Part shown: in pieces, positions 1-64,000 of the stretch
Layout: each line of letters begins with the position of its first letter
Position numbering within the stretch: position 1 is the first letter of the stretch
Virus record (IMG/VR): IMGVR_UViG_3300042453_001086
Location: 96,001 to 160,000 of that record
DNA length: 64,000 nt
Strand: one strand, 5' to 3'
Source: a virus
Position numbers and translations under genes: made by a program
The notes under the pieces: model-generated
What the model was told of the DNA's origin: nothing
The model's input: the letters and a program-made list of their open reading frames with translations, nothing else
Database searches by the model: none

Positions 1-21
1 AATGTTTTCCATGAATCTAAA

Positions 22-3000
22 TCAGAACATTTGTGTTTTTATAACTTTAACCTTTAGATTTGCAGTTGTAAGTAGATTGTTTGCAGTAAACAGCAATCTA
101 ACTTCATTATTATTTATTTCAGCACTGAATGAACCGAGATAAACATCACTCACTAGAGTTGCATATTCAGTCATCAAAACATCTACATTATCATGGACTA
201 ACATGATTTCTGTGGAGTGAACTCTAAGACCTTCTTCATTTTCAGTAACTTGAATCAAATACTTGCATGTGTTAGTTTTATCTTTATTGAACGAATCAAT
301 AACATGTGGAGCATATGCAGTTATAAAATCAACACCTGGCTTTTCGTATGAACCAACAACAATAATACCATAGTTATCTTCAGTATTTCCAGACTGGTAA
401 TATAGAATGGTTGGAGAATCAAACGGAACAGTAAAATATAAAATACCAGATTCTCTGTTAGTTACTCTTACTCCGTCTGAATAGTTTGATGATGGCGTGG
501 TTTCTAGGGGTTCTAAAATATCTTTTGGTTCGGTTGTAATAAAGAATGGTTCACCTGCAACAGACAGATTGAACTTATAAGATTTTCCAGGAACTAAGTG
601 TAGTGTTGGTAATGCACCTAGATTTTTATCAATGATTCTATCAACTATTCTATACTGACCGTTTAATAAGGATACATTAAAAACTGTAACTTGTTCTACA
701 TCTTCGCCCAATCCAAGTTCAAGAACGTTTCCTTCGTCGTTTGATAAAGTTGGGAACTCGTTGTTTCCTAGTAATGTTCTTCTCTTGATATTTTCTAGTT
801 TTCCTAAAGTTACACCTTTTTCTCTTAGTGCTAAAACTGACGACGAATCAATCTCAAATGTTCTCCAATCATACTTAACTACGCCTACATCACTGCTTCC
901 AGATGTTTGACCACTGAAGAAACTAGCTCTTCTTATATCCAGTTCTGTGAATCCAGCATCATATCTAACACCAGATGTCACAAATCCTTCCGAAACATAT
1001 TCTCCTGGATCTGATGCCAAATCATATGTAAATGCAGTCGGTGATGTTACAGTAACTTGGAAAAATCCATTGTAACCATATGGGAAAATAGATTCCACTT
1101 CTACCCATTGATTATTTGTTAATCCATGTGCAGTTGTTGTGGTTAACGTTACTTTTAATGTGTTACCATCCCACACAGCAGAACTCACGTTTGTTGTGCT
1201 TCCTGTTTTTAGAACATTTAGTCTATTTCCACTTATAAGAACTGGGGAGTTTGTTGATGGAACAAGACCCTGTGTTACTGGAGAATACTTGCTAATTCCA
1301 GACAAAAATACTGATTCATTTGAAATACCAGTTCCCAATCTTGCTGGAGAAATGATACCAGAAACAATATTATTAGCATTGATGTTAGTACCACTAAACA
1401 CATTCCAGTTATCTGGATTGTTTACTGGTTCGTCGAGAAGAATATATGCTATTTCTGTGTCAGTCTGATACGCAACATCTCCAGGTATTGCGATAGTCAA
1501 TCCTAGTCTTTCTTCTTCATTTGCTACTGTAAAAACGTTTACTGGGTTTGCAGGTGGTAGCAACTCTGAGTTGATTCTTCCGTTGCTATCGAGAAGAACA
1601 AGTTGACCTGGAGCACGACTAGTTGTTTTATTTAATCCAATCAGATTTCCTAGTACTGAGGGTTTATTGATGTAATCTCTTACCGCTTTCTGTGTGGGTA
1701 GAGCAGTATTTTTTGAACCAGTGCCACCACCTAATGTGTCATCTGTAGAGAACTCATAGATTGGAACACCAGGAGATGCCTTTAACTGTAGTTCATCAAG
1801 AACGCCAAGAGCAACTGCTCCACTAAAAGTAGCTTTACCAGTTCTTAAATCTACTCGGAAGAAAGGACCAACAAAGAAGTTACCATCTTGATCGGTGGCA
1901 CTTACATATGATTTTCCACTGGAAGATTCTACTGATTGAAACTCTGCTCTAGATCTGCCACCATTTTGTGGTAAAGCAGTATAGTTAATACCAGCACCAA
2001 CATATTCAAAAGTGTGCCCTGAACTATTTACAGTAGATGGAGCTCGTAGTTGAATAGCAGTATTACTTACAATCAAACCTAAATCAGAATCTGGTATTTT
2101 AGGTTGTGTTGTGAGAACCGTAATATCTGTATCTTCTTCAAATCTACTAACAATATCCACAACATATTCAACACCACTTGGGTGTGGTGGTAGATTTATA
2201 GCAGGAAACTTAATAACATAGTTTGGAAGTGCTTTTGCATCAAACCCAGTTATCTCTATTTCAGTATAAGTTGCACCACCAGTAACTATTACTTCTCCTG
2301 TTTGACTTCCACTTAAAGTTTCATATACAGAGTTCCATGAAATATTTAATAATATTTCTACAATATTATCAGATAATACTATTCTGTTAACTTCTAAGGC
2401 AGTTCCATTAATATATGATTGTAATGCTGTTATAGCGGCACTGCTTGCTGGATTAGGAAGTATATGAGAATCAATGTTTAATGATTGATTGGGTTCAAAC
2501 TTACCAATATCTGTAGAAGAAACTTTCAAAAACATTCTAACTTTAGTGGCATCTTCTTCAAAAGATGTCATTATGATATTAGATGGAGAAGAGTTAAAGT
2601 TTGTCTTAGTGAGGTTATTGATCTCAGAAACGTTACCAATAAAGAATGGATATGGATTGTTGCTATATCCAATAGCTTTTAGACCTTCATTGCCAAAGTT
2701 GGTTGCTGAGTTTGTAATCGATGTGTATGCTCCACTTTCACATAATACACCAACATCTTCAAAAACTTCAAACACCGAAACCAACTGTGCATATCCATCA
2801 TTTTTTAAGTGGAAACCGATGCCACCAGAAACAACTTGTGTGAAAGCATCACACACCATAGATTTGATAGGAGTATTTGGTTCTAGTTGATCGCCATCAA
2901 CTAATATACCACCAGCTCTAGTTTTTCTAGCATCATAGGTTTCCACTCCATTGATAACTTCACTATAACTGTCTCCTAAAACAGAAATGGCAGAGCAGTT

Positions 3001-42511: not shown

Positions 42512-42536
42512 CCCCATGTTAACAATCAGTAATATA

Positions 42537-43532: not shown

Positions 43533-43537
43533 GATTT

Positions 43538-43624: not shown

Positions 43625-43764
43625 TAGAATCTTACATTCACCCCAACAACCTTTGCCTTAGGATTACGAGCGAGAGCAGTTTCTCTAGCGTCTTGGGGAT
43701 TCACTGCTTGAACTTCTTCTTCAAACACTTTACCACCAACGTAGAGTTTAACAACGTAAGTCAT
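43624..43764 (-). CDS. Conserved hypothetical protein
   Basis: MTYVVKLYVGGKVFEEEVQA..ARNPKAKV. Confidence 0.7.
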   Translation of the reverse strand: MTYVVKLYVGGKVFEEEVQAVNPQDARETALARNPKAKVVGVNVRF

Positions 43765-43765
43765 T

Positions 43766-43975
43766 TCAGTTACCTTCAGCGATTTGGTTGAGAATGTTGC
43801 GAGCAAACTTCATGAAATCATAGGCAGTCACACCGCCCTTGTGATTGTCAACAGCATAACCATCAAGCATATCAGACTGATTGTAAGTATTCACAATCAG
43901 CAGACAAGCATCATACAATGCTGCGCGATGTGCTGCTTCAGCGTTAAACTGCATGGCGCTGTAAGAAGGAAGCAT
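43766..43975 (-). CDS. Hypothetical protein
   Basis: Start reassigned to MLPSYSA after a cassette promoter. Confidence 0.62.
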   Translation of the reverse strand: MLPSYSAMQFNAEAAHRAALYDACLLIVNTYNQSDMLDGYAVDNHKGGVTAYDFMKFARNILNQIAEGN

Positions 43976-43997
43976 CGGGTTGGTTGCGTATGAAAGT

Positions 43998-44056
43998 ATT
44001 ATAGGGCATTCAGAGGGGTCTGTGCGACCCCCTGTGCCACTTTGCAAACTGGTCAG
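43998..44056 (-). promoter_or_regulatory. Thirteenth, isolated cassette promoter (TGTGCCAC-N8-CTGGTCAG, 29 bp spacer, TATAAT)
   Basis: Same geometry and GGGGTC/GACCCC hairpin as the copy at 32824-32883. Confidence 0.7.
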
Positions 44057-44442
44057 CGAGCGTACAGATAAGAACCAGCCCAGTCTGCATTAGCAAACAA
44101 CCATTCACGATCTTTGATCAGACGCAGATCATAACGCACACCTTTAGCGGGTGCTTTGAGACTAGCAGGCTTGTAGACTTCACCAGTCTTCTTGTCAATG
44201 AAAGCATGAATGCTATCACGCTTGCCATTGATGCACATGAAGATTTTGTGATACTTACGACCAGAACTATCAAGTTCGTAAGAATAGTTAGAGTGAGGAA
44301 GACCAGCACGGTAAGCATAGTTACGCTTCTGGAAATCCTGCTGGAGAGCATCACACAGCATCATACCATACTTTACAACATTCAAATACAGAGTGTTGCG
44401 AGCATCTTGCTCTGCTTGAAAGTCAGCGAAGGTGGCAGTCAC
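44053..44442 (-). CDS. Conserved phage hypothetical protein
   Basis: RKYHKI..SIHAFIDKKTGEVYKPAS.KAPAKGVRY; GTG start. Confidence 0.78.
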   Translation of the reverse strand: MTATFADFQAEQDARNTLYLNVVKYGMMLCDALQQDFQKRNYAYRAGLPHSNYSYELDSSGRKYHKIFMCINGKRDSIHAFIDKKTGEVYKPASLKAPAKGVRYDLRLIKDREWLFANADWAGSYLYAR

Positions 44443-44467
44443 TTGGCGTTCCGTCGATTACCTATGT

Positions 44468-44496
44468 AATATACACGGGATCTGGTGCCGCGTCAA
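44468..44496 (-). promoter_or_regulatory. Sigma70-type promoter TTGACG-17-TATATT
   Basis: 17-nt spacer. Confidence 0.7.
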
Positions 44497-44500
44497 CCCC

Positions 44501-44791
44501 TCAACGATAAGTGTCTCTAATACGTGCCTCAAGCACTGATATGCGAGCCTTAACTTCCTCCATATCATTCTTCAGATAGTTATGTTGCAGTGATTCATCA
44601 ACAAACTTATCCCTGTAATAGTTGAGTTCATCATCTGTCTCTACAAATATATTCTGTAGTTCTTCGTATTTGATTTTGAGTTCTTCAAAGTTATGACGCC
44701 ATGAATCACGTTCGATACGATATGTGTCACGCTCTTTCTTCATGGCGTCATATTCCATTTTCATCAGAACTTCATCACTGTACTGATCCAT
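44501..44791 (-). CDS. Coiled-coil hypothetical protein
   Basis: Start reassigned to MDQYSDE. Confidence 0.65.
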   Translation of the reverse strand: MDQYSDEVLMKMEYDAMKKERDTYRIERDSWRHNFEELKIKYEELQNIFVETDDELNYYRDKFVDESLQHNYLKNDMEEVKARISVLEARIRDTYR

Positions 44792-44966
44792 TTTTCTCAT
44801 GCTGTTTAATGAACTCTTCCAATGCTTTAGTGAGATAATCTTGCAACTCATCTTGACTCATTTCATTGAAAATGGCATAACGAGGATCATTTGGATCCCA
44901 TTCAATCTCAAGTGTGCCATCAGCATTTTCAGATACTTTTAGCGAATCTTCATTAGTATACGTCAT
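44775..44966 (-). CDS. Hypothetical protein
   Basis: ENADGTLEIEWDPNDP. Confidence 0.68.
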   Translation of the reverse strand: MTYTNEDSLKVSENADGTLEIEWDPNDPRYAIFNEMSQDELQDYLTKALEEFIKQHEKNGSVQ

Positions 44967-45165
44967 TTGGTTCTGCCCAGTTTCTTAAGGTGTCCTCGTA
45001 TTGTTTTATTTTATCACTTTGTTGCATTGTGTAGTTGATTAGAGAATCAATCTGAGATTGCAGACGATTCTCTATCTCATACAATGCATTTGTTGTCTCT
45101 ATGTTTTCTTCCTCAAGTATCTTAACACGATCCTCAAGATATGTCAACAGATCATCCATTTTCAT
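44953..45165 (-). CDS. Coiled-coil hypothetical protein
   Basis: LEDRVKILEEENIETTNALYE. Confidence 0.68.
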   Translation of the reverse strand: MKMDDLLTYLEDRVKILEEENIETTNALYEIENRLQSQIDSLINYTMQQSDKIKQYEDTLRNWAEPNDVY

Positions 45166-45316
45166 CGAAAACTACTCCATTACCTTTACCCTGTAGAGAT
45201 TTAGCCAACAACTGAGCATAAGAATCCATGTATTCAGAATCAAATGCTAGCATACCACTACTTGTTCTGAGACATTCTCTCATTTCTACTAGTTGTTTCC
45301 ATTCTTGGTCGGTCAT
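45152..45316 (-). CDS. Hypothetical protein
   Basis: Start reassigned to MTDQEW (uncertain). Confidence 0.6.
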   Translation of the reverse strand: MTDQEWKQLVEMRECLRTSSGMLAFDSEYMDSYAQLLAKSLQGKGNGVVFDENG

Positions 45317-45413
45317 GGGGTTTTGGCGAATACCACAGTAATTTATCAGCAAATCCACACAAATGGGGATTTCTTAATATTCTCTTTTTCTTTGAGAAAC
45401 AAAACTTTACAGT

Positions 45414-45581
45414 TTAGATGATTCCCATATATTTTAGATACCTACGATATGCGTGATATCTACCAACTGAAGGTTGCCCAGGAACATCCAACTGATGACA
45501 GATTTCACAATACATCAAAAACTCATACCATGGCGTAGTTTCATCTAGCACATGGTATGGGTATTCTTTAGAGTTTTCCAC
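45414..45581 (-). CDS. Hypothetical protein (55 aa, GTG start, not in track)
   Basis: ..TPWYEFLMYCEICHQLDVP..YRRYLK. Confidence 0.55.
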   Translation of the reverse strand: MENSKEYPYHVLDETTPWYEFLMYCEICHQLDVPGQPSVGRYHAYRRYLKYMGII

Positions 45582-45804
45582 CTACTGTTCCCTCGTATGT
45601 TGTGGTAGCAGTCCAGCCTTCTTGGCATCCTTTAAGGTAAAATCTGGTTGCATTAATACAAGTGTCTCGCTGTAATGAGGTGATGAGTTCTTTACCCTCT
45701 TTGGAAAAACTTCTGAAAGTTTTCCAACGAGTTTCTTCCACACGGAATGCATCATCAATCCATTCATGCTCAGCTATTTCGGGGTGCTCGTTTGGGTGGT
45801 TCAT
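45568..45804 (-). CDS. Conserved hypothetical protein
   Basis: WIDDAFRVEETRWK..YEGTVGGKL. Confidence 0.72.
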   Translation of the reverse strand: MNHPNEHPEIAEHEWIDDAFRVEETRWKTFRSFSKEGKELITSLQRDTCINATRFYLKGCQEGWTATTTYEGTVGGKL

Positions 45805-46130
45805 TCAAACTCTCCAGTGCGGTTTTTGATTGTGCCTGAGTAATATACTCCCGTAAGGTTGGTGTCTCCAACCATTCCCAGATTGTGCCGTCTTTCTGGG
45901 TATAGGATTTCGGAACTGTTTGGATTTTCATAGATTTCTACCTCAACGTTAATGTCTCTGTCATTCCAGTGTCTCACCACACCCGCTACAATAAAAGCAT
46001 TGGTGATGAGATATGTAGCGAAGATAAAGGTGCGAATGACTGCAACTTTATCTGCTTCGTTATCGCAGTCGCTTGCCTTTTGCCCCAGTGACTTCGCCCA
46101 CCAGCGCCACATCATTCGTAGTTGCTTCAT
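45801..46130 (-). CDS. Membrane hypothetical protein
   Basis: WWAKSLGQKA..DKVAVIRT, TM helix. Confidence 0.68.
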   Translation of the reverse strand: MKQLRMMWRWWAKSLGQKASDCDNEADKVAVIRTFIFATYLITNAFIVAGVVRHWNDRDINVEVEIYENPNSSEILYPERRHNLGMVGDTNLTGVYYSGTIKNRTGEFE

Positions 46131-46428
46131 ACTGTGTTACTTTGTATCGTGTGATATGTTTGTGAAAGTGGTCGTAGCATTGAAACCAACAAGTTTTCTT
46201 GTCGTTACCGTCTTTGTATTCTAGGCGAATAGGGAATCCAGTGTGAGGAAACTTATCAGGGTCATTGCTAAGTTTAAGACTACATCCCTGTTGGGTAACG
46301 GTAGGGGTCTTTGTATCCTTCTTCTGTTTTGTTAGTTTCCCCCAGTTTTGATCCGTTTCCGCTTTGACGGTAGAGCGGGTACTCTTGGCAGGCTTCGTAG
46401 CAGGCGTCATAGAAACTTTTTTCGGCAT
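46060..46428 (-). CDS. Hypothetical protein with Lys/Thr-rich N-terminus
   Basis: FPIRLEYKDG..CWFQCYDH; overlaps both neighbours. Confidence 0.55.
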   Translation of the reverse strand: MPKKVSMTPATKPAKSTRSTVKAETDQNWGKLTKQKKDTKTPTVTQQGCSLKLSNDPDKFPHTGFPIRLEYKDGNDKKTCWFQCYDHFHKHITRYKVTQYEATTNDVALVGEVTGAKGKRLR

Positions 46429-46582
46429 AACCACATCCTAACATGAAAGATTTAAAAATGTCAAGCAACTCGTGTGCATCAAGGTCTGAGCAATCAGTTT
46501 TGATTGTCAGTGTCTTGGATGGGTAGCGTTCACCCATGCACACCAGTTCATCGCTTTTGTAAGTGAAAGTCGTTGTGCTCAT
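46280..46582 (-). CDS. Hypothetical protein
   Basis: ATGA-coupled to the upstream gene. Confidence 0.6.
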   Translation of the reverse strand: MSTTTFTYKSDELVCMGERYPSKTLTIKTDCSDLDAHELLDIFKSFMLGCGYAEKSFYDACYEACQEYPLYRQSGNGSKLGETNKTEEGYKDPYRYPTGM

Positions 46583-46974
46583 CGCCCTGTCACATCCTCA
46601 TAATCTTGTAGTTTACCATACTTGAAGTGCAAACGCAAGCGCGGCCAGTCTTCCCACGCTCCCTTCCATCCTTCGGGATGGATTTCAATATACTTTGTCA
46701 GATAGTGTGGTTGATACCTACCATGCTCACCAGTTGGCATCCATTCGTGGTTTCCCCATTTAATGTTAGGGTCATATCGTGGGTCATCCTCTTCAAATAC
46801 TTCAAATGTATGTGTGCCAACGTAACTTGGATACCACAAAAGACCATTGGGGTCTAACCAATAGTCAGTCATTGTGCCACCAATACCATCTTCAATATCT
46901 TTGGTTTGGCACACCACATTTGTAAACTGCTCACCCAAATCATACGATGAGCGAAAGTAATCAAACATTCCCAT
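46579..46974 (-). CDS. Conserved phage hypothetical protein
   Basis: MGMFDY..QTKDIE pattern. Confidence 0.75.
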   Translation of the reverse strand: MGMFDYFRSSYDLGEQFTNVVCQTKDIEDGIGGTMTDYWLDPNGLLWYPSYVGTHTFEVFEEDDPRYDPNIKWGNHEWMPTGEHGRYQPHYLTKYIEIHPEGWKGAWEDWPRLRLHFKYGKLQDYEDVTGR

Positions 46975-47236
46975 GTTTCTCTACCGTAGCCCTCCAGAAA
47001 TCAGATGTCATGTTATTCGACCCAGTTACTTTAGCAACGATGATGCCATCAATCAACGCCACAAGCGTTGGTGTAGCTTCAACACCACAATCAGTAGCAA
47101 ATTGTGTCCACTGTTTGCCCTCTTTAGCATTGGTGATGGTGACAACATTCTCCCATCCTTCTACCTTATTCAGTTGTGTTTCGGCATACATGCAAGGTCT
47201 ACAACCTTCCTGCACGAATAAATGAATCTCGGTCAT
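46961..47236 (-). CDS. Thioredoxin/glutaredoxin-like protein
   Basis: CRPC active site, cis-Pro-type VEATPTL. Confidence 0.8.
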   Translation of the reverse strand: MTEIHLFVQEGCRPCMYAETQLNKVEGWENVVTITNAKEGKQWTQFATDCGVEATPTLVALIDGIIVAKVTGSNNMTSDFWRATVEKHGNV

Positions 47237-47403
47237 GTCGTTGTCATCCTAAGTTTGTTGAAACTATCTATAAAGGTTTCCCAACCTTCATCCAGTTGTT
47301 TCTCCGCCCAACCCCATGCACCGTGCTCCATACCATCAATCTGAGCACAATCAATCTCACTTTTGATTAGATCGCGCAACATTTCTACTTGCTCTTTAGT
47401 CAT
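47233..47403 (-). CDS. Hypothetical protein
   Basis: Start MTKEQVE, ATGA coupling. Confidence 0.62.
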   Translation of the reverse strand: MTKEQVEMLRDLIKSEIDCAQIDGMEHGAWGWAEKQLDEGWETFIDSFNKLRMTTT

Positions 47404-47711
47404 TCTGTTTGCTCCCAAAGTTTTTCACGCATCATTCTAACACATTTATCCCACTGCATCGTAGAATATGAAGGTCGTGGGTCTTCCTTCGGCAACCATC
47501 GCTCCACTGCCTCTACAATCTCATCACACATATCAATAGAGAATCCTAGCTCATGTCGCATGACATTCCACAGCGATGGTGGGCGCTTGAAATGTTTATC
47601 AAGTAGTTTATCAAGGTCAAATACACCATCTTCCTTTGCTTGTTTCATAGCATTACGCAGACCTTCATCTACTTGCTCTGGTGTTTGTGGTGTTGGTTGA
47701 TATTCAGTCAT
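47400..47711 (-). CDS. Hypothetical protein
   Basis: Coupled ORF. Confidence 0.65.
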   Translation of the reverse strand: MTEYQPTPQTPEQVDEGLRNAMKQAKEDGVFDLDKLLDKHFKRPPSLWNVMRHELGFSIDMCDEIVEAVERWLPKEDPRPSYSTMQWDKCVRMMREKLWEQTE

Positions 47712-47875
47712 CGGATTCCAGTGTCAAAGAGTTTTTTAAGTTCGTGGTAGACAAGCACTAAATCTCGGTCGGTAGATAGGTGACCGCAATCCTTTGCTCC
47801 TCGTAAAAACTCATAGAGCTCTTTTGCTTGTTGCTCTGTGAGTGTGAGTTTGTAGTTTTTTTGGATTTCAATCAT
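47708..47875 (-). CDS. Hypothetical protein (55 aa, not in track)
   Basis: MIEIQKNYKLTLTEQQAKELYEFL...; ATGA coupling at both ends. Confidence 0.62.
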   Translation of the reverse strand: MIEIQKNYKLTLTEQQAKELYEFLRGAKDCGHLSTDRDLVLVYHELKKLFDTGIR

Positions 47876-48099
47876 TTTCTATCACCCCATAGTTGTTCAA
47901 AATACTTACCATCTCTACCACAATACATCTCAAAATGTCTGGCATCTTTACAACTTTCACTTTTTTTGTCTCCCGTCACCAAATCACCAGTTATGATTGG
48001 ATTATAACATCTATCAAGTGAGTTGTTCCCAAAAAGATGACCCAACCAACTTTTCTTATAATAGAGACAATCTTTACATAGTTTGCGTTTTTCAGTCAT
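47872..48099 (-). CDS. Cys-rich hypothetical protein
   Basis: CKDC..C..C..C. Confidence 0.68.
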   Translation of the reverse strand: MTEKRKLCKDCLYYKKSWLGHLFGNNSLDRCYNPIITGDLVTGDKKSESCKDARHFEMYCGRDGKYFEQLWGDRK

Positions 48100-48278
48100 A
48101 AAATGTAAGGTTGCTGGGGGTCTTCATACCATGTTTCATTATAGCACAACCACGGCTCTTCTTTGTGCGTCATTTGTGCCATCCAATGCTGCCCGTTTTC
48201 ATCAATCGCATCCAAGTAATGAATGCGCGTCTTAGGGTCAATCGTGCGAGTGATTGAAACAAACTTTACTTTACTCAT
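48096..48278 (-). CDS. Hypothetical protein
   Basis: IHYLDAIDENGQHW. Confidence 0.68.
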   Translation of the reverse strand: MSKVKFVSITRTIDPKTRIHYLDAIDENGQHWMAQMTHKEEPWLCYNETWYEDPQQPYIL

Positions 48279-48498
48279 GTCTCACAAACTCCTTGTATTC
48301 AGGGATTTTACCACAAATGTTGTCGGCATAGCTGGGAGAGTCGCCTTTCATCATCATCCGACACTCCATGTTTTTAGCATATGCTTCTTGGAATACTTGG
48401 TTTTGTTTGAGACCAAACAATCCAATCCCACCAAAGAAAAGCAGTGGGAAAACAACAATGGCAATCAGAAAAATCAAACCTTCTTCACTAAAACGCAT
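48271..48498 (-). CDS. Membrane hypothetical protein
   Basis: N-terminal TM helix, two Cys. Confidence 0.65.
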   Translation of the reverse strand: MRFSEEGLIFLIAIVVFPLLFFGGIGLFGLKQNQVFQEAYAKNMECRMMMKGDSPSYADNICGKIPEYKEFVRHE

Positions 48499-48787
48499 AC
48501 TTAGCCTCCGTTTCTTTCATACGCAGCAGGAATCCATCATCACCAATGTCACCACTGTAGAGATAGTCAATGTGCTTCATAATCTCTGCCATCTTACGCA
48601 GTTTGGGAATCTGCTCCTGTAAAACATCAATCACATCAGGGTCATGGTTGGGATACCATTCATAACCATATGTGCGGTCTTCATCCCTAGCCTTACCATT
48701 ATTCTCAATCTCTACTTCCAACTCATCAGCAAACTGTGATACCTTGTAGTAATCGTAACCACAATCTCCAAAGTGTCCACCGCTCAT
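48488..48787 (-). CDS. Conserved phage hypothetical protein
   Basis: MSGGHF..IDYLYSGDIGDDGF. Confidence 0.75.
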   Translation of the reverse strand: MSGGHFGDCGYDYYKVSQFADELEVEIENNGKARDEDRTYGYEWYPNHDPDVIDVLQEQIPKLRKMAEIMKHIDYLYSGDIGDDGFLLRMKETEAKYAF

Positions 48788-48996
48788 TTTACTGCCTCCA
48801 GTTCATCAAGTTTTTCATTTACAAAACCAGTCATATCAATCGTGCGAGGATCTACACCTTCATCAAGGCAATCAAGGTGAAACTCCATCACAGCACCAAG
48901 GATCAGACAAGCACGGCGTTTGTCATGCTCAGTGATAGTTGTGTGTGGCATCGCAACATAGTTGACAATGTGCTCGTAGAGTTGGTCGTAAGTCAT
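48784..48996 (-). CDS. Hypothetical protein
   Basis: Coupled ORF. Confidence 0.68.
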   Translation of the reverse strand: MTYDQLYEHIVNYVAMPHTTITEHDKRRACLILGAVMEFHLDCLDEGVDPRTIDMTGFVNEKLDELEAVK

Positions 48997-49277
48997 TATT
49001 CTTGGGGAGTTTGATTAGGAACTGGAGGTGGTGGTGCTACAGGTGGTAGTGTAACAGGTTGCGGTTGGGGAGCGGGGATTGTTACAGGAGTTGTAGCCTT
49101 CTGCTCCAACTCAGAAATCTTTTTCTGTAAATCAGTGATATGCTGCTCGTATGTATTATTAACTTCTTCTGCTGGTTTTGTTTGGTTTTCATTTGCCAGT
49201 TTCCAACCAGCAGCACCAGCAGCAAAGATACTTGCGAGAGCAGCAAATACAGAAACAGTCTTAGAAAAACTCATCAA
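48996..49277 (-). CDS. Membrane-anchored coiled-coil, Pro-rich protein
   Basis: N-terminal hydrophobic helix; C-terminal PAPQPQPVTLPPVAPPPP. Confidence 0.68.
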   Translation of the reverse strand: MMSFSKTVSVFAALASIFAAGAAGWKLANENQTKPAEEVNNTYEQHITDLQKKISELEQKATTPVTIPAPQPQPVTLPPVAPPPPVPNQTPQE

Positions 49278-49453
49278 TAATCTTCCTCGTCAAAGGTAAA
49301 GTATTCGTAGATTTGAGACATTACGGCGTCTTCAATCCGCTCTATAATAGCACCTTCACAAGGATTCTCAACGTGTTTGTGTGCTAATGCATACCCACGA
49401 CGCACACCTTCTTCGATTGCCATTTCAAGAATCACACGGGTTTTAGGTTTCAT
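49274..49453 (-). CDS. Conserved hypothetical protein (59 aa, not in track)
   Basis: MKPKTRVILEMAIEEGVRRGY..AHKHVENP. Confidence 0.7.
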   Translation of the reverse strand: MKPKTRVILEMAIEEGVRRGYALAHKHVENPCEGAIIERIEDAVMSQIYEYFTFDEEDY

Positions 49454-49635
49454 TCTTCATCCTCCACAGGAAACATTGTAGCATACTCTTCATCAGTGAC
49501 AGTGAGAATCTCTAAGGTGCCATTCTCAGTTGCCTCCGTGATTTCTTCATCATACATCACAAAGTAGCGAGCAAACTCGTGTAAACTGGTGCTGCCAAAC
49601 TCAACAACACCATCAATCAGACAAAGGTAGTTCAT
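49450..49635 (-). CDS. Acidic hypothetical protein
   Basis: Start reassigned to MNYLCLIDG. Confidence 0.65.
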   Translation of the reverse strand: MNYLCLIDGVVEFGSTSLHEFARYFVMYDEEITEATENGTLEILTVTDEEYATMFPVEDEE

Positions 49636-49636
49636 T

Positions 49637-49810
49637 TCAGTTCTGGTGTTGTTTAAGGTGAAGTTGGATACATTCCATAACATCATCAAGTGTAGAAGCA
49701 CTACCATCATAGTAGTAATCCATATTGATTACATCTGTGACTTTGAGTTTGTAATAAAAATCTCCATCAGATGAATACTGATGAATGATGATGTCAGTTT
49801 CGTAGCTCAC
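49637..49810 (-). CDS. Hypothetical protein (57 aa, GTG start, not in track)
   Basis: MSYETDIIIHQYSSDGDFYYKL...; GTGA coupling. Confidence 0.58.
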   Translation of the reverse strand: MSYETDIIIHQYSSDGDFYYKLKVTDVINMDYYYDGSASTLDDVMECIQLHLKQHQN

Positions 49811-50043
49811 AAGATTACATCCTTGATTTCAGTGATAACTTCCCAGTGTGCGTCAGCTTTGTCACCGAAGCGATTGCTACCAGTGCGAGTGCTGACCCAG
49901 AAGAAGTATTTGCGGTTTTCGGCAGCAAGGAATAACTCACCGCCAGTATCCTGCTCTACAACACAAACAGGATTGCCTTCCATTGTGTTAGCAAGACGAT
50001 TCTTTGCCTTGCTACTTTTAGGTTTTACAATAACCTTCCTCAT
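49807..50043 (-). CDS. Conserved hypothetical protein
   Basis: VKPKSSKAKNRLANTMEGNP. Confidence 0.72.
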   Translation of the reverse strand: MRKVIVKPKSSKAKNRLANTMEGNPVCVVEQDTGGELFLAAENRKYFFWVSTRTGSNRFGDKADAHWEVITEIKDVIL

Positions 50044-50234
50044 TTACCAGCGATGAGAGCGAGAATGACAAAGATAACAAGGAAAGCGAGAGCAATCAGG
50101 GCACTAATCCACAGCGGCGACAGCACCCACACCCACGTCCAAGTAATATGACCCGTGAGTTTCAGACCGACAAACAGGACGGTCAGAAGACCAGGAAAAC
50201 CGATACCGCTGGAGGAAGAAGAGGAGCTAGACAT
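50040..50234 (-). CDS. Small phage membrane protein (LKL..W.W.WVLSPLW family)
   Basis: Start reassigned to MSSSSSSSSG after the promoter. Confidence 0.72.
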   Translation of the reverse strand: MSSSSSSSSGIGFPGLLTVLFVGLKLTGHITWTWVWVLSPLWISALIALAFLVIFVILALIAGK

Positions 50235-50258
50235 GGCGTGTCTTTCGTTGATGTATGT

Positions 50259-50287
50259 AATATAACACCCCTCAACGGCGCTGTCAA
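50259..50287 (-). promoter_or_regulatory. Sigma70-type promoter TTGACA-17-TATATT
   Basis: 17-nt spacer; flanked by a CACCCC/GGGGTG stem. Confidence 0.75.
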
Positions 50288-50304
50288 GGGGTGATTGATA
50301 AGTG

Positions 50305-50853
50305 TTACGGATACTTGCCGACGATACCAATAGTATATCTTATCTGTCCACCAAATCCCGTGAATGATGTGTCAACGTCTGCTCGAATGTCAGATACTAC
50401 TGCTCTTCCATTAGCAATATCTTCCAATACTTTGAGGAAATGTTTCTCCATTTCTGTTGTTGGTTTAGGAAAAGCAAAACATGTTGATACTGAAGTTTTG
50501 TTGATTACTTTATCTGCACTGATGTAGTCGCCATTGATAATCATTTTACCATTCTCTACCTTGCCAGTAGGAATGACAACATCATCTATACCATTAGAAA
50601 TAGAAAGCTCATTGGTAGCAGCATTGAATGTTAGTTGCCCTTGAGGTTGAGCAGCAATAGATGTATAACTAGGTGATAATGTAATCCCATTGTGGGGATT
50701 CATTGTGATAATATCATCTGCCATACCTCCACGCAGACCAGATAAAAAACTATCTCTAAACTCATCAATGGTTGGTTTTTTTTCTTCTACGACTTCCTCT
50801 TCTTTCTTCTCACCGTAGATTTCTTCGTATTTGTCAAGTAATGGATTACTCAT
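50305..50853 (-). CDS. Hypothetical protein
   Basis: 182-aa coupled ORF. Confidence 0.68.
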   Translation of the reverse strand: MSNPLLDKYEEIYGEKKEEEVVEEKKPTIDEFRDSFLSGLRGGMADDIITMNPHNGITLSPSYTSIAAQPQGQLTFNAATNELSISNGIDDVVIPTGKVENGKMIINGDYISADKVINKTSVSTCFAFPKPTTEMEKHFLKVLEDIANGRAVVSDIRADVDTSFTGFGGQIRYTIGIVGKYP

Positions 50854-51056
50854 TTCTTTTTCTTCCTGTCAATAACTTCTACATGGGTAACATATCCTGC
50901 TGGAACTTGCATCCAACGTGCTGTAACTTCATCATACCATTCGTATGTTTCTACTTTACCACTGGCATAGAATAGTTTGTATTTGTGTCTGTCGTATGGT
51001 TTATAACAGCTCTGTGAAAAGTATTCTGGTGATGATTTAGGAATCAGTTGTGTCAT
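50850..51056 (-). CDS. Conserved hypothetical protein
   Basis: KPYDRHKYKL..W..VEVID. Confidence 0.7.
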   Translation of the reverse strand: MTQLIPKSSPEYFSQSCYKPYDRHKYKLFYASGKVETYEWYDEVTARWMQVPAGYVTHVEVIDRKKKK

Positions 51057-51328
51057 AGATATGAATCTCCACGATGGTATCTATCAAAGTTGCGTGGCGA
51101 GAATGTTAGAAAATCACAGCGAATCTCAAACCACTTCCAGCGGAATGAGAATCCTGTGAGTGAGCGACTACCGAAGCTAATCAGTAGCATTGGGAATATT
51201 TCTGTGGCAGGGTATTCATCCCACTGAATAGTCATATCCAACAGTGCAAAGTGTGGATATGCTGAGAGCAGTTGGAAATACCATTCATGCCCGTAATCTT
51301 CGTAGTGTGCTGCGTCAAATAGTTTCAT
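51053..51328 (-). CDS. Hypothetical protein
   Basis: HYEDYGHEWYFQ. Confidence 0.7.
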   Translation of the reverse strand: MKLFDAAHYEDYGHEWYFQLLSAYPHFALLDMTIQWDEYPATEIFPMLLISFGSRSLTGFSFRWKWFEIRCDFLTFSPRNFDRYHRGDSYL

Positions 51329-51540
51329 TCTGCTAACCTCAGTTTACGCTCTGGTGAAGGAATGTGTATACGATATGCGTCATCGTATGGGTAGACGTAT
51401 TCATAATACCAACCAACATTAATGGTTTCCCAAAACTCTCCATAACCCCATTCATCGCCAGCATTGTAGGCATCAACGGCAGAGCAGATATAGTGGAATC
51501 CTTCGAGGAAGTCATCCCACTTAGATTCTTTAAACCTCAT
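51325..51540 (-). CDS. Hypothetical protein
   Basis: Start reassigned to MRFKES. Confidence 0.62.
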   Translation of the reverse strand: MRFKESKWDDFLEGFHYICSAVDAYNAGDEWGYGEFWETINVGWYYEYVYPYDDAYRIHIPSPERKLRLAE

Positions 51541-51724
51541 CCCATTCCTCGTATCTGGTATTGATTTTACCACAGTTGTTGAAGATATTCAAGTGCCCTG
51601 TGCGACCATCCTCAAAATAGAATGCCATCCACACATGCTCGCCTTCATCCATCACCTCATAGTGGTAGGATTTGATATTATCAAGCAGAAACTCGTCTGG
51701 GTTGAATAGTGTTTTGTCGTCCAT
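51530..51724 (-). CDS. Hypothetical protein
   Basis: Start reassigned to MDDKTLFNPDEF. Confidence 0.65.
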   Translation of the reverse strand: MDDKTLFNPDEFLLDNIKSYHYEVMDEGEHVWMAFYFEDGRTGHLNIFNNCGKINTRYEEWDEV

Positions 51725-52134
51725 TATGAATAGTTGAAGTAAAAGTGTGTTTCCCAATCAAGTGCTGGTTGGTCTCTACGCTCAATCATCTTTACAATAT
51801 ATGATGGAATCAGATTAGCATACTGAGTCATAAATTCTTCTTGTGTAGGCTGTGTTAGACCATAAATGTAATGGTCGGCACCCTCACCAATAAACTTAAC
51901 AAACCTCTCAAGGTCGTAATCTTTACCATTATGTAAATCGTAGTTACGACATACTTTCAACCAGAAAGACATACCCTCTCCAGTGGCAAAGTATTCAATC
52001 GCAAAGAAACGATAGAATGGTCGCTCAGTTTTAGCGAGCTTTTCTAGTGCTGGTTTATACTCTTCGATTGCTTCTTTAGCAATGTTGATTGCTTCGCGTT
52101 TTGCTGCTTCTTCAAGCATTTCTTCGTGTGTCAT
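51724..52134 (-). CDS. Hypothetical protein
   Basis: Coupled ORF. Confidence 0.68.
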   Translation of the reverse strand: MTHEEMLEEAAKREAINIAKEAIEEYKPALEKLAKTERPFYRFFAIEYFATGEGMSFWLKVCRNYDLHNGKDYDLERFVKFIGEGADHYIYGLTQPTQEEFMTQYANLIPSYIVKMIERRDQPALDWETHFYFNYS

Positions 52135-52411
52135 GTGTCACCTCAAAACATACTGAGTTAAACTTACCTTTGACTCCTCTGAGTTCTATTTTAGTGTGTT
52201 GAGAATGAACGTAAACATGCTCAACGTAGTATTTGTCGCCTACTATTAGGATACCAGTGGGGTCATCGTTAGACCCCCATCTTACCTGCTCTATAGTGCA
52301 TCCGAGATACTTTACTGTATTTCCTACTTTGATTCTATCCATTGCTGCCCACCCTAGATTAGGCCAAGTATCTCTATATATTTGATTGAGACGCTCGTTG
52401 TCATAATACAT
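52112..52411 (-). CDS. Hypothetical protein
   Basis: Start uncertain (an internal M is possible); HTKIELRGVKGKFNSVCF. Confidence 0.6.
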   Translation of the reverse strand: MYYDNERLNQIYRDTWPNLGWAAMDRIKVGNTVKYLGCTIEQVRWGSNDDPTGILIVGDKYYVEHVYVHSQHTKIELRGVKGKFNSVCFEVTHDTRRNA

Positions 52412-52412
52412 G

Positions 52413-53252
52413 TTAGGAATACAACAAAATCTCGGTAGCGGGTTTAGCAGCGTATCCAGTACTGGTTTTCTTACGACGACCAGCAGTATATGTCACAGGA
52501 AATCTAGTAATGTTTAGGTCACCTTTCCTATCATCAAAAAATGTAGATCCATCACAACGGTTGCATAGAAGAACATGACCATCAATGCTTTTGGCATGTT
52601 CTATCAGTTCTTCAGTCTCTGTATCACCCCAGCTCGTACCATACTTAGTAAAACTATCACGATATGGTGGGTCAAAATAGTTTAAATCTCCAGTGGGGCA
52701 GTCTTTGTAATCACCACAATAGATCTCTACATTTTGCAACAACTCATGCCAAGCATATACCATTGCTTTATCATAGACTACATCTTTTTGATTCAATAGT
52801 CCTGCAGGAGTACCATATCTACCGTTAGTATTTTTATTGATCTGCCAGATGCCATTGAAACCTGTTTTCATCAGGAAATACAGTACTCCCGCTTCAAACT
52901 CTTTAGACCAAAACTTGTAATCATATGCATGAGTTTGACGAACTTCAAAAAAGTATTTCTTTCTATCTTCTTTAGACATAGGAATATACTTGCTCTGAAA
53001 AACATCTACAACATTGCAAAACTCATCTGGAGATTGTTTTACCGTTCGGTAAATATTTACAACACTTTCGTTGATATCATTGATATATGCCCGTTCGGGA
53101 TTATACTTCTGCATAACGTGCAGAAACATAGCACCACCACCAAAGAACGGTTCAGAATAACTGTTGACCGTTGATGGTAAATGTGGTGCATGGTATTTGA
53201 GCATTTTGGTTTTGCCACCTGCCCATATGAAAAGTGGTTTTAGTTTAGGCAT
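52413..53252 (-). CDS. Dam-family (D12 class, alpha group) N6-adenine DNA methyltransferase; target unknown
   Basis: WAGGK, EPFFGGGA (motif I), DIN, YFDPPY (motif IV); start MPKLKP overlaps the upstream stop. Confidence 0.9.
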   Translation of the reverse strand: MPKLKPLFIWAGGKTKMLKYHAPHLPSTVNSYSEPFFGGGAMFLHVMQKYNPERAYINDINESVVNIYRTVKQSPDEFCNVVDVFQSKYIPMSKEDRKKYFFEVRQTHAYDYKFWSKEFEAGVLYFLMKTGFNGIWQINKNTNGRYGTPAGLLNQKDVVYDKAMVYAWHELLQNVEIYCGDYKDCPTGDLNYFDPPYRDSFTKYGTSWGDTETEELIEHAKSIDGHVLLCNRCDGSTFFDDRKGDLNITRFPVTYTAGRRKKTSTGYAAKPATEILLYS

Positions 53253-53463
53253 CTTGACTGTCGCCATAAGTAGGTGGATGATACTTCAAATACTCAAAGA
53301 ATGTCAACTTCATTTCTTTTTGTGTCATACCGCAATGTTTAGCAGCTGCAGGAAGTGTCATTTTAGACTGAAACAGTCCTTCGTTTGCTTCTTTTACATT
53401 CTCTGGTGTAGTCTTTACAGGGATTTCGTATAAATCTACTTTATTGATTTTTAGAAGACTCAT
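53245..53463 (-). CDS. Conserved hypothetical protein
   Basis: KTTPENVKEANEGLF..MTLPAAAKHCGMT. Confidence 0.72.
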   Translation of the reverse strand: MSLLKINKVDLYEIPVKTTPENVKEANEGLFQSKMTLPAAAKHCGMTQKEMKLTFFEYLKYHPPTYGDSQDA

Positions 53464-53647
53464 CTTTCCACTTATCAAGGGTATCAAAGAGTTGGTCAAC
53501 AGATTTGAGTTTGTCAATACTACACATTAAATCTGCAATACCTTGGTTTACCATAGGGCGTTCATTTCGCGCTGCATATGCAAGTGCATTACGCAACGCT
53601 GCTTGAGCTTCATCAAGCGATTCTTCTACTTGTTTAGATAATGTCAT
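53441..53647 (-). CDS. Conserved hypothetical protein
   Basis: SLDEAQAALRNALAYAARNERP. Confidence 0.72.
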   Translation of the reverse strand: MTLSKQVEESLDEAQAALRNALAYAARNERPMVNQGIADLMCSIDKLKSVDQLFDTLDKWKDESSKNQ

Positions 53648-53832
53648 TAGTCAGTTGCTCTCCATTGTGATACTTTGGTGCGAACAGTTTGAAACTCTTC
53701 TACATGCTGCAGAATACGATGTGCCGCTTCCTTTGCAGTCTCTTGGTCGTCTTCATTCCAACTGGAAACTTCAGTCCACACATAGTAGATTTCATCAACG
53801 ATAGAATCAATCAGTTTGTCATAGTGGGTCAT
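53647..53832 (-). CDS. Hypothetical protein
   Basis: Coupled ORF. Confidence 0.68.
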   Translation of the reverse strand: MTHYDKLIDSIVDEIYYVWTEVSSWNEDDQETAKEAAHRILQHVEEFQTVRTKVSQWRATD

Positions 53833-53954
53833 TTGATTACCTCCAGTTGACGCTTGAGCGCCTGCTTACGAGCTTTTGCCTGACGCAACATCTGAGGTTT
53901 CAGAGTGCGTTTGGCATCCTTCTTAGAGTGGTGCTGCCAGTTGGGCGTGGTCAT
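53829..53954 (-). CDS. Small basic protein
   Basis: Start reassigned to MTTPNWQHHSKK. Confidence 0.65.
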   Translation of the reverse strand: MTTPNWQHHSKKDAKRTLKPQMLRQAKARKQALKRQLEVIK

Positions 53955-53958
53955 TGTT

Positions 53959-54192
53959 CTACTCGAAAGTGGGGCAAGTGAAATAAGAAAGATCATCGCC
54001 TTGCTCTGCAGTTCCCCATTCTTGGAACTCTTGAACCAGGGCAAAAATATCAGCATCACGACCTCCTTCTTTGTCAAGGATTTCGAAGCGATTCTCAATA
54101 TATTCAAGAATGTTTTCGACAACAGTTTCAACGTCATCCGATTCAATCATCGGAACAACGCCGTCGTCGCCGTAGTCTTGGATGCCGAGCAT
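53959..54192 (-). CDS. Acidic hypothetical protein
   Basis: Start reassigned to MLGIQD after the promoter. Confidence 0.65.
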   Translation of the reverse strand: MLGIQDYGDDGVVPMIESDDVETVVENILEYIENRFEILDKEGGRDADIFALVQEFQEWGTAEQGDDLSYFTCPTFE

Positions 54193-54217
54193 GGGGGGTC
54201 TTTTCGAGTACAGAGTC

Positions 54218-54246
54218 ACTGTAGCATCCCCAGCACCCGTTGTCAA
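54218..54246 (-). promoter_or_regulatory. Sigma70-type promoter TTGACA-17-TACAGT
   Basis: First promoter of the accessory region, at the compositional boundary. Confidence 0.72.
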
Positions 54247-54255
54247 GCCCCTATG

Positions 54256-54600
54256 TCAAAGTTCGTTTGTCCAGGCAAGTTTTCCTTCTTCATCATAAAT
54301 CATGCAATCAATAATAAATTTTGGATTTATTTCTTTTATTTGCGAATAATAAGGAAAATACATTTCTGCGTGTGCCAGGGCAAGATCAAAGTTAGGAAAC
54401 TTCAAAAATCCCCAATCCGAATTTTTTATTAGAGTAAATATTTCTAATGGCATTTTATCTTTATAAAAATCCCAAGCAGCATTTATAGTATTTACATCGT
54501 TACTATACTTCCAAGTAGGAGTAAACACTAAAATGCATTGTTTAATAGAAGATGCATACTCTTCTAAAACTTCTGCTAAAGTGAAACAATCATTTTCCAT
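54256..54600 (-). CDS. Hypothetical protein
   Basis: Start MENDCF overlaps the upstream stop. Confidence 0.65.
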   Translation of the reverse strand: MENDCFTLAEVLEEYASSIKQCILVFTPTWKYSNDVNTINAAWDFYKDKMPLEIFTLIKNSDWGFLKFPNFDLALAHAEMYFPYYSQIKEINPKFIIDCMIYDEEGKLAWTNEL

Positions 54601-63700: not shown

Positions 63701-64000
63701 ACTTTAATATTTGGTTGAGTTGTAGTGTTGATAGAGTATGTTTGACTCTCTACGGTGATCTGCTGCCCTTCAGATGGGGTTACATCAAGATAAGTAGCAG
63801 AAGAACTAAATGGATTTCCAACCGTATTCGCAACTCTCCAAATGCCATTAAGTGCTGCGATTGGAGCTTGAGCACCAGTAATCTTGACCTGAGTAGATTC
63901 ATTAATATTGAGTAAAGTATTTGTCCAAGCTGGAGATCCAGTTGTATTCCAGTTCAATCGAATAACATTGCCTGTGCCAAATCCTTGAATACTTGCAATC
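60796..64000 (-). CDS. Long tail fibre protein, C-terminal part (5' end beyond the window)
   Basis: Frame is open to 64000 (IASIQGFGTGNVIRLNWNTT..); Gly/Thr-rich fibre repeats DLTVTGNDIK; LMLP..GDMIRIVD..GWWLMEI C-terminus. Confidence 0.85.
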   Translation of the reverse strand, partial: IASIQGFGTGNVIRLNWNTTGSPAWTNTLLNINESTQVKITGAQAPIAALNGIWRVANTVGNPFSSSATYLDVTPSEGQQITVESQTYSINTTTQPNIKVSRSNTLWKEWGIIGTEAIRTETSNIGDYKLGVNTIARANHSAYDNAFISDETTPRANLDLVGTAFFSGKTLSVTPNNFLANSNPTNRTFNGVSNAFLIGGDSANPSNEATFRLSTATNRVGINVTNAELDRSLVIDGDGRVTGNFRFQADIEVNGGDITTTVTTGSFNFVEDTTFTGTLNIGSYASTVNFAARATTLNIANTTTSTQTINIGNAAVTQTINIGNVGTGTHDINIAAGAANLTFDVGNPSASATSSKITLGGAYNANESNSFLEVKTKSAKFWGDMQIGVNKLITDTVTLGTNAGSVNFFSTSGSASTISFGLNASELNIGGQGGTTTIRNSLTVDASILSKGNITLDGGTAAFSFNGTRASLGSTIASHTGFPTGAPLDKNIDLVTVLSGFNNTVDTAGAGPWGGTFFQNAIGTYTANDGSALVALTGNEYYLPLVSAPTYAEGDDILIDSTVASGVHPEIVKVAVGGLRRTTTAPYYIIVERQPYGTFLPQKTNHPDNTTTRKVNVALDATWLTANTDGAGTTDVFSLAEFGGSLASGDYIFVDRNSTGTSGEAVKIGTSTGATAQKLIITNGAGSTKFEVDSTTGATVVSDATSLGGLTVYGPLNFVGSCVSTGDARKFKLSNTTGETFSVDMCNGATTITQGTLTTNVSALSATATWNSSATTFTGIKLNVTNTSSNASSDLIDLQVGGTTRFDVKASTGDTYIFGDLTVNGNTIKSSSADALELSGANVEVKGDLTVTGNDIKSSGGTTVLTLNNNDATFADNLTVTGDLTVNGGDFVVNFNGTKRFAVNDSGSIDLGGIDEYFTSTGGRKWIFIQNDSNTQNAINNTSEENLRSNCNYFVQTSGSPNTQLILMLPGTSAVGSIPAAKSGDMIRIVDTGGKISNTCQLVIRARNSIKIMGDSTGSNIGMPSGQVYSSGGELIINTPNAGFGLIYCGPDSGASTTFQGWWLMEI

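What the first reader, a model, noticed from the sequence alone, without database searches (positions are those of the whole stretch)
1..64000. Strong avoidance of the tetramer AATT, near-absent in the early region
Manual counts: about 6 AATT in 19021-21000 and about 6 in 54301-56220, where AT content of roughly 68-70% predicts about 25 each under base independence. I counted 0 in 41401-42480 and 0 in 47701-48780, and found only a handful in 37-54 kb (45340, 47100, 51833). Glu-Phe, Lys-Phe and Glu-Leu pairs are repeatedly coded GAG-TTT, AAG-TTT, GAG-TTG rather than xAA-TTx. I found only one GAATTC (36190-36195, in a leader). Inference: selection against an AATT-targeting nuclease, either the phage's own EcoRI-like enzyme or a host R-M system, strongest in first-expressed DNA.
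Basis: partly seen in the sequence, partly recalled or inferred. Interest (0 to 1): 0.75.

Follow-up and report, generated by a model that had tools for sequence, protein, structure and literature searches.

The report
Cyanophage purges its own nuclease's AATT
This T4-like virus of cyanobacteria has removed about five in six AATT words from its DNA by silent codon changes, most likely because it carries its own small EcoRI-like enzyme that cuts AATT, which may be one of the unexplained ways these viruses destroy host or rival DNA.

Summary
Confirmed. The window lies in an apparently complete 189.9-kb T4-like cyanophage genome. AATT is at 0.16 of Markov expectation genome-wide and 0.13 of codon-shuffled expectation (z -48, all three frames). 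The likely cause is in the window: a 178-aa EcoRI-fold nuclease (33795-34331) and, 18 kb away, a Dam-like methylase with changed base-reading residues (52413-53267). These genes are adjacent in 63 of 80 viral loci carrying the nuclease. A sister phage has empty sites at both genes and normal AATT (0.94). Phages grown on the same host strain differ with the gene, and the trait follows the nuclease in 11 independent pairs (p about 0.004). Two lineages with the nuclease but no methylase in the sequenced part have 0 AATT in 112 and 74 kb. 'Strongest in early DNA' is not supported: a structural region is as empty, and the array holding the nuclease is not. Specificity and function are inferred, not assayed. 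I found no paper describing this; the scan has reported the same system on other genomes (e1-5779303, e1-5725689, e1-5779293, e1-5725708).

The parts
1..64000 (.). AATT depletion by synonymous recoding; extends over the whole 189.9-kb genome (window = G000 96001-160000)
   Evidence: of 376 aligned AATT in the nuclease-free sister only 19 (5%) are kept here, against 23-39% for other A/T words
33795..34331 (-). R gene: 178-aa EcoRI-fold PD-(D/E)xK endonuclease (D67, E82, K84; GNAIER at 90-95), predicted AATT cutter
   Evidence: profile finds EcoRI chains as the only notable PDB hits (E 0.0013); model pLDDT 89; Foldseek EcoRI E 2e-6; VIA Z 14.4, rmsd 2.4 over 151 residues; catalytic and GNA-ER residues invariant in 57 homologues
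34354..34382 (-). sigma70-like promoter of the R gene (TTGCAA, 17 nt, TACATT)
   Evidence: read directly from the sequence; consensus match only, and not listed by the scan
33695..33723 (-). terminator-like hairpin after R (12 bp stem, T tail)
33797..34416 (-). 620-bp promoter+R cassette, a clean indel relative to sister phage G009
   Evidence: flanks align at 88% and join directly in the sister
52413..53267 (-). M gene: D12-class (Dam-like) N6-adenine methyltransferase; I14 and Q142 stand where EcoDam has K9 and R124; predicted cognate AATT methylase
   Evidence: PF02086 E 3e-29; alignment to EcoDam/DpnM; Q142 invariant in 48 homologues; replaced by about 160 unrelated bases in the sister; adjacent to R in 63 of 80 viral loci
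54218..54246 (-). sigma70-like promoter (TTGACA, 17 nt, TG-extended TACAGT) heading the small-ORF run that contains M
   Evidence: consensus match only
40071..41321 (-). SF2 helicase (T4-GC36 type) that lies between M and R here; in relatives R, M and many other nuclease/methylase cassettes sit right beside it
36200..54300 (.). local trough: 3 AATT in 18 kb
   Evidence: real, but not unique in the genome

Best explanation
The phage carries its own split type II restriction-modification system for AATT. SHOWN: the depletion; an EcoRI-fold nuclease with intact catalytic and inner-AATT-reading motifs; a Dam-like methylase that travels with it; the co-variation of depletion with the nuclease. INFERRED: the nuclease is made from its own host-type promoter and cuts unmethylated AATT in the infected cell; the methylase marks AATT in phage DNA; protection is incomplete (probably newly replicated, not yet methylated DNA), so every AATT costs a little and synonymous changes that remove it are selected. 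With the methylase the purge is partial (0.16 here); without it, total. Most likely purpose: cutting up the host chromosome for nucleotides and shut-off (about 50%), cutting co-infecting or superinfecting phage DNA (about 35%), or mainly selfish persistence of the cassette (about 15%); these can coexist.
For: Depletion survives Markov and codon controls. R fold and motifs. R and M overlap in S-BM1, are one gene apart in S-RIM2 and within 2.5 kb in 63 of 80 viral R loci. Named phages: AATT O/E 0.25 in S-BM1 and 0.31 in S-RIM2 (R+M) against 0.57-0.98 in 20 R-free cyanophage records. 80 R loci median 0.40; 80 helicase-anchored R-free loci median 0.88, none under 0.5. On a helicase tree R needs 13 changes; in 11 independent pairs low AATT goes with R in about 9 and never against (sign test median p 0.004). 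Sister G009 has empty R and M sites and O/E 0.94. R-only contigs G031/G032 and G033: no PF02086 gene, AATT 0/340, 0/282, 0/233, with TTAA, ATAT, TATA near normal.
Against: No biochemistry: neither cleavage nor methylation specificity was measured. S-CREM2 carries a 45%-identical R with intact motifs and no close M, yet AATT is only 0.64, like its other palindromes. Several R+M loci are barely depleted (0.8-0.95; L250, L253, L256, L258, L269), and two R fragments without M nearby have 0.75-0.81 with GAATTC in excess (L214, L232). The R-only contigs are 41-63% complete and lack even the core Dam region, so a distant M is not excluded. One R+M locus also shows 0 (L212, 0/23), so zero is not exclusive to M-less loci at small scale. 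No expression data could be obtained.
Confidence: 0.87

Rival explanations
1. A host AATT restriction system drives the depletion, and the phage methylase is an anti-restriction gene (the standard reading of cyanophage methylases).
For: Cyanophage Dam genes are usually read this way (PMC12801897). CCGG and RGCY are depleted in most cyanophages regardless of R, which may well be host-driven. The natural host of this phage is unknown.
Against: S-BM1 and S-RIM2 (0.25, 0.31) and S-IOM18 and S-P4 (0.86, 0.85) all list WH7803 as host. Depletion switches with the phage R gene in independent pairs. Pattern scans of 185,579 prokaryote genomes found no R relative and M only on two 3-kb MAG contigs, one with R beside it. 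[quoted passage not shown] A host system does not explain why the phage keeps a nuclease.
Confidence: 0.05
2. The methylase, not the nuclease, is the cause: m6A at AATT is costly or mutagenic, so sites are lost; the nuclease is a passenger.
For: Some loci with M and no R within the fetched DNA are strongly depleted (L290/L291 0.16-0.18, L299-L301 0.14-0.17, L315 0.01).
Against: These are fragments, and the pair can be split by 18 kb as here (G020 is such a case: its gap covers the R site). The deepest purge (zero in 112 kb) is in contigs with R and no M.
Confidence: 0.04
3. R is a GAATTC (EcoRI-isoschizomer) or degenerate 6-cutter with strong star activity; AATT loss is a side effect.
For: GAATTC is 0 in coding DNA against 51 expected and 3/25 in G003, where AATT is only 0.66. 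Residual sites depend on flanks: O/E 0.07 with no A-tract flank, 0.22 with one, 0.35 with two.
Against: CAATTG (3/69), TAATTA (1/52) and CAATTA (6/120) are as low as GAATTC (3/65); R-only genomes lack every NAATTN. A flank preference within an AATT specificity fits better.
Confidence: 0.03
4. Compositional, codon or mutational bias.
For: The phage under-uses most palindromic 4-mers (0.5-0.8).
Against: Codon-shuffle z -48 in all three frames and in non-coding DNA (29/120); other all-A/T palindromes near normal; relatives at 65-68% gp6 identity have O/E 0.86-1.03.
Confidence: 0.01

Closest known systems
EcoRI restriction endonuclease (type IIP, GAATTC; PDB 1ERI, 1CKQ, 2OXV; Pfam PF02963)
   Same: Same fold (VIA Z 14.4, rmsd 2.4, 151 residues; Foldseek E 2e-6), PD...ExK catalytic core and GNAIER motif in the same order. 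In EcoRI that motif reads the inner AATT (own knowledge).
   Different: 178 against 277 aa; only 5 residues between the catalytic Lys and GNAIER, so most of EcoRI's intervening segment is missing; about 20% identity; no Pfam hit for this protein itself; predicted 4-bp target; partner is a Dam-like D12 methylase; found only in viral contigs.
AATT cutters MluCI, Tsp509I, Sse9I, TasI; related MunI (CAATTG) and ApoI (RAATTY)
   Same: Predicted recognition word AATT (MluCI = AATT, PMC8919816 legend; the others from own knowledge). MunI appears in the fold search at Z 7.9, which is not above background.
   Different: Homology to MluCI/Tsp509I was not tested: no sequences were available through the tools. 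Those are cellular defence systems.
EcoDam / T4Dam / M.DpnII (DpnM) D12-class GATC methylases
   Same: Same family (PF02086, TIGR00571 above cut-off), FxGxG and DPPY motifs intact.
   Different: K9 and R124 of EcoDam, which read the outer G:C pairs of GATC (own knowledge), are I14 and Q142 here, so GATC is unlikely; AATT is inferred. The phage has a separate core D12 methylase (genome 40543-41433).
Virus-encoded R-M systems of chloroviruses and haloarchaeal tailed viruses
   Same: A lytic virus carrying nuclease plus methylase, proposed to degrade host chromosomes or competing elements (haloarchaeal viruses: PMC8651126; chloroviruses: own knowledge, paper not held).
   Different: Here in a T4-like bacteriophage; the genes are split by 18 kb; the virus removes its own enzyme's sites, partly with M and apparently completely without it. 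PMC8651126 attributes motif purging to escape from host R-M.
T4 EndoII/EndoIV (denA/denB) host-DNA degradation
   Same: Possible same job: selective breakdown of host DNA by a phage nuclease that spares phage DNA.
   Different: T4 tells self from non-self by modified cytosine (own knowledge); cyanomyoviruses lack denA, denB and ndd (PMC2984593). Here self is marked by methylation plus absence of the site.

Membership tests
EcoRI-like type IIP endonuclease | EcoRI-type alpha/beta PD-(D/E)xK fold | tested here: met
   EcoRI is top hit, well above the next rows (Z 14.4 vs 9.9)
EcoRI-like type IIP endonuclease | catalytic PD...(D/E)xK residues intact | tested here: met
   P66 D67, E82, K84 invariant in 57 homologues; PD aligned to EcoRI
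EcoRI-like type IIP endonuclease | GNAxER recognition motif | tested here: met
   G90 N91 A92 E94 R95 invariant, aligned to EcoRI GNAIER
EcoRI proper (PF02963, GAATTC) | Pfam family match above cut-off | tested here: not met
   no hit for this protein; 1 of 57 homologues at E 1.6e-4; a few carry precomputed PF02963
EcoRI proper (PF02963, GAATTC) | genomic footprint limited to GAATTC | tested here: not met
   all NAATTN depleted; zero AATT in R-only contigs
Type II R-M system | separate nuclease and methylase that co-occur | tested here: met
   within 2.5 kb in 63 of 80 viral loci; both missing at empty sites in the sister
Type II R-M system | nuclease and methylase act on the same site | not testable with these tools
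   inferred from linkage, residue changes and the zero-versus-partial purge
Type II R-M system | homodimeric nuclease making double-strand cuts | not tested
   Complex prediction could not be reached
Dam (GATC) methylase | D12-class motifs | tested here: met
Dam (GATC) methylase | Lys9 and Arg124 GATC-reading residues | tested here: not met
   I14 and Q142; Q142 invariant in the family
MluCI/Tsp509I-type AATT systems | sequence homology to these enzymes | not tested
   no reference sequences available through the tools

The most novel reading that the evidence does not exclude
T4-like cyanophages routinely carry exchangeable 4-base restriction nucleases beside one helicase gene and use them, in place of T4's denA/denB, to destroy host and rival DNA. 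Self-protection runs along a path from methylation with partial site loss to complete site loss with the methylase discarded, so each phage's missing tetramers read out its nuclease arsenal. The AATT system here is one case; TTAA, GATC, TGCA, CATG, ACGT and GTAC cases were seen in relatives.
Probability: 0.5. Interest if true: 0.85.

Novelty: new variant of a known kind. Interest (0 to 1): 0.72.

Why it matters
Cyanophage infection degrades the host genome (PMC6708340), yet cyanomyoviruses lack T4's genes for this, and a review concluded that they are either less efficient at it or use an undescribed method (PMC2984593). Their methylases are read as shields against host R-M (PMC12801897), although host R-M is uncommon in marine picocyanobacteria and a methylome survey found that explanation wanting (PMC8919816). 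A phage-owned nuclease whose site is purged from the phage genome would answer both puzzles. It is directly testable, because cultured S-RIM2 and S-BM1 carry the same pair and grow on WH7803 beside phages that lack it. It also reverses the usual inference that site avoidance in a phage reports host enzymes, and it offers a minimal EcoRI-fold enzyme for studying 6-bp versus 4-bp recognition.

Tried and rejected
Early-region gradient: tested with a scan statistic; the trough is real but matched by a structural region, and the array holding R is not low. Recent-acquisition effect (lead from e1-5779293): DNA unshared with G020 has O/E 0.18 against 0.16 for shared DNA, so not seen here at this resolution; weak correlation with A+T content only (rho 0.32, p 0.049). 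RATY specificity: AATC and GATT are over-represented and GATC only mildly low, rejected. G020 (M 95% identical, no R found) looked like an M-only case, but its gap covers the R site, so it is uninformative. Single-sequence PDB, Pfam and NCBIfam searches with R found nothing. AATT could not be counted through the genome search (pattern too short); regions were fetched instead, 40-60 kb for each control phage rather than whole genomes. Ten literature searches found no description of this system; the S-CREM2 record labels its homologue 'restriction endonuclease EcoRI' but the paper does not discuss it. The chlorovirus paper was not held. The library lacks most subscription papers and REBASE was not available, so absence from the literature is not proven.

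Full report
Context. The window is bases 96001-160000 of a 189,882-bp viral contig whose ends overlap by about 145 nt, so it is apparently complete. Baseplate, tail-fibre, psbA-like and T4-type replication genes mark it as a T4-like cyanomyovirus; its gp6 is about 55% identical to the best sampled cultured relatives.

The observation. AATT occurs 79 times in the window against 447 expected from its 3-mers, and 186 against 1156 in the genome. Shuffling synonymous codons within each gene gives 1206 +/- 22 against 155 observed, with loss in all three frames; non-coding DNA has 29 against 120. All hand counts are exact. The 37-54 kb trough (3 against 88) survives a scan correction (p 0.018), but genome 75-92 kb, which encodes large virion proteins, is as low (p 0.001), and 29-37 kb, which holds the nuclease gene and its promoter, sits at 0.30. 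Heterogeneity over 10-kb bins is marginal (p 0.07). The depletion is genome-wide, and an early-gene gradient is not supported.

The nuclease. ORF 33795-34331 (178 aa) has its own sigma70-like promoter and a terminator. A profile of 57 homologues finds EcoRI in the PDB, and the model (pLDDT 89) matches EcoRI by Foldseek and VIA-align. PD67, E82-x-K84 and GNAIER are conserved. From established knowledge, these are EcoRI's catalytic residues and the motif that reads its inner AATT. The protein is 100 residues shorter than EcoRI. No relative was found in a pattern scan of 185,579 prokaryote genomes.

The methylase. ORF 52413-53267 is a D12-class adenine methylase. Against EcoDam it has Ile for Lys9 and Gln for Arg124, the residues that read the outer G:C pairs of GATC (own knowledge); AATT specificity is an inference. 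Its orthologue overlaps the nuclease gene in S-BM1, is one gene away in S-RIM2 and lies within 2.5 kb in 63 of 80 viral loci. Here, and apparently in close relatives, the pair is split by 18 kb with the helicase between.

Depletion follows the nuclease. S-BM1 and S-RIM2 have O/E 0.25 and 0.31; twenty cyanophage records without R have 0.57-0.98, including S-IOM18 and S-P4 on the same host strain. Among 80 gp6-anchored loci only the two closest relatives are depleted. Eighty helicase-anchored loci without R have median 0.88 and none under 0.5; eighty R loci have median 0.40. On a helicase tree the gene needs 13 gains or losses, and in 11 independent pairs low AATT goes with R about 9 times and never against; R-free labels rest on up to 10 kb each side, so errors would weaken the link rather than create it. 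The sister contig G009 (73% nucleotide identity over 45 kb) has clean empty sites at R and at M and O/E 0.94; only 5% of its aligned AATT are kept in this phage, against 23-39% for other A/T words.

The natural experiment. Three contigs of two lineages (87% identical) carry R directly after the helicase and no D12 methylase in 112, 90 and 74 kb; they contain no AATT against 340, 282 and 233 expected, while TTAA, ATAT and TATA are near normal. This points to AATT, not GAATTC, as the target, and suggests why the purge here is partial: the methylase covers the remaining sites. These contigs are 41-63% complete, so a distant methylase is not excluded. The sites that remain in this genome favour A-tract flanks (0.07, 0.22, 0.35 for zero, one, two), which may reflect slower cutting or faster re-creation by mutation.

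Exceptions. S-CREM2 has an intact-looking R, a different methylase and only 0.64. Some R+M loci are at 0.8-0.95 and two R fragments at 0.75-0.81. Recent gain, changed specificity or better protection could explain them; none was tested.

Mechanism. Most likely the nuclease cuts unmethylated AATT in the infected cell, the methylase marks phage DNA, and leakage selects against each site (0.87). What the cutting is for is inferred: host chromosome breakdown (about 50%), exclusion of rival phages (35%), selfish persistence (15%). Host R-M (0.05), a methylase-driven loss (0.04), a star-prone 6-cutter (0.03) and composition (0.01) fit worse.

Wider pattern. The same helicase locus holds other cassettes whose apparent sites are depleted. 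S-RIM8 and S-IOM18 have a GATC-type Dam plus a nuclease-like gene (GATC 0.11, 0.33), and three further loci with that gene have 0.11, 0 and 0.33. S-RIM14 and L391 share a nuclease-like gene and have no TTAA. HNH-like or PD-(D/E)xK-like genes with methylases go with low TGCA; lone nuclease-like genes go with zero CATG or ACGT. Most of these nuclease calls rest on motifs and weak family hits and were not followed up.

Comparison and novelty. It works like the virus-borne R-M systems of chloroviruses (own knowledge) and haloarchaeal viruses (PMC8651126), but is not EcoRI and not Dam. I found no paper on this enzyme pair or on self-site purging in cyanophages. Cyanomyoviruses lack denA, denB and ndd, and their way of degrading host DNA was called undescribed (PMC2984593); their methylases are read as anti-host shields (PMC12801897), a view questioned in PMC8919816. 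Verdict: new variant of a known kind, interest 0.72. My reading was formed before I consulted the scan's notes; those notes report the same system on other genomes and in overlapping windows of this one and are not counted as evidence. This report adds the empty-site sister, the same-host contrast, the independent-pairs test and the negative result on the early region.

Noticed in passing
whole genome; window 1-64000: CCGG is absent (0 against 145); GGCC 0.21, AGCC/GGCT 0.36, AGCT 0.52; GGTACC, AGCGCT, GCATGC, GGCGCC, GTGCAC and TCGCGA are 0. CCGG and RGCY loss is shared by most cyanomyoviruses sampled but not ACG-2014e (CCGG 23/24); cause (host or a core phage nuclease) unknown.
   Followed up: partly
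S-RIM14 record 47029-47535 (L337:7029-7535); L391 near 4055: 168-aa PD-(D/E)xK-like gene directly after the helicase, no methylase beside it; TTAA 0/204 and 0/31.
   Followed up: partly
L163 (S-RIM8), L157 (S-IOM18), L385, L386, L419: GATC-type Dam plus a 200-aa nuclease-like gene (weak MvaI/BcnI hit) before the helicase; GATC O/E 0.11, 0.33, 0.11, 0, 0.33.
   Followed up: partly
L155 (S-RIM12), L159 (ACG-2014b): Dam plus 144-aa PDDEXK_11 nuclease; GATC 0.55-0.56.
   Followed up: partly
L359, L384, L387-L390, L345, L383: Two different nuclease+methylase cassettes after the helicase (HNH-like + D12; PD-(D/E)xK-like + N6/N4), both with TGCA at about 0.07-0.2.
   Followed up: partly
L392 (12566-13066), L395 (7208-7912), L371 (11449-12895), L350 (7526-9091): Further candidates: lone nuclease-like genes with CATG 0/77 and ACGT 0/19; nuclease-like + methylase with GTAC 1/54; Bsp6I-family nuclease + C5 methylase.
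   Followed up: partly
S-RIM44 (W05), L363: GTAC absent (0/244 in 80 kb; 0/41); no nuclease seen at the helicase locus.
   Followed up: partly
L342:11317-12799 (sister G009): The sister that lacks the AATT genes carries its own GIY-YIG-like gene plus D12 methylase after the helicase, where this phage has none.
   Followed up: no
window 32371-32799 (-): ArdA-like antirestriction protein (PF07275, E 5e-5, below cut-off) 1 kb downstream of the nuclease gene.
   Followed up: no
genome 40543-41942 (outside window): Core D12 methylase preceded by an overlapping 170-aa ORF of unknown function; could be a second R-M pair.
   Followed up: no
window 30000-34000: G+C jumps to 55-56% in an array of very short genes, against 32-36% in the structural region.
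   Followed up: no
S-CREM2, S-H34, ACG-2014f (L126, L146, L148): A second D12 methylase type (Lys kept at the K9 position, Gln or Lys at R124); beside R in S-CREM2 and beside another nuclease-like gene in ACG-2014f, which has the lowest AATT of the R-free set (0.57).
   Followed up: no
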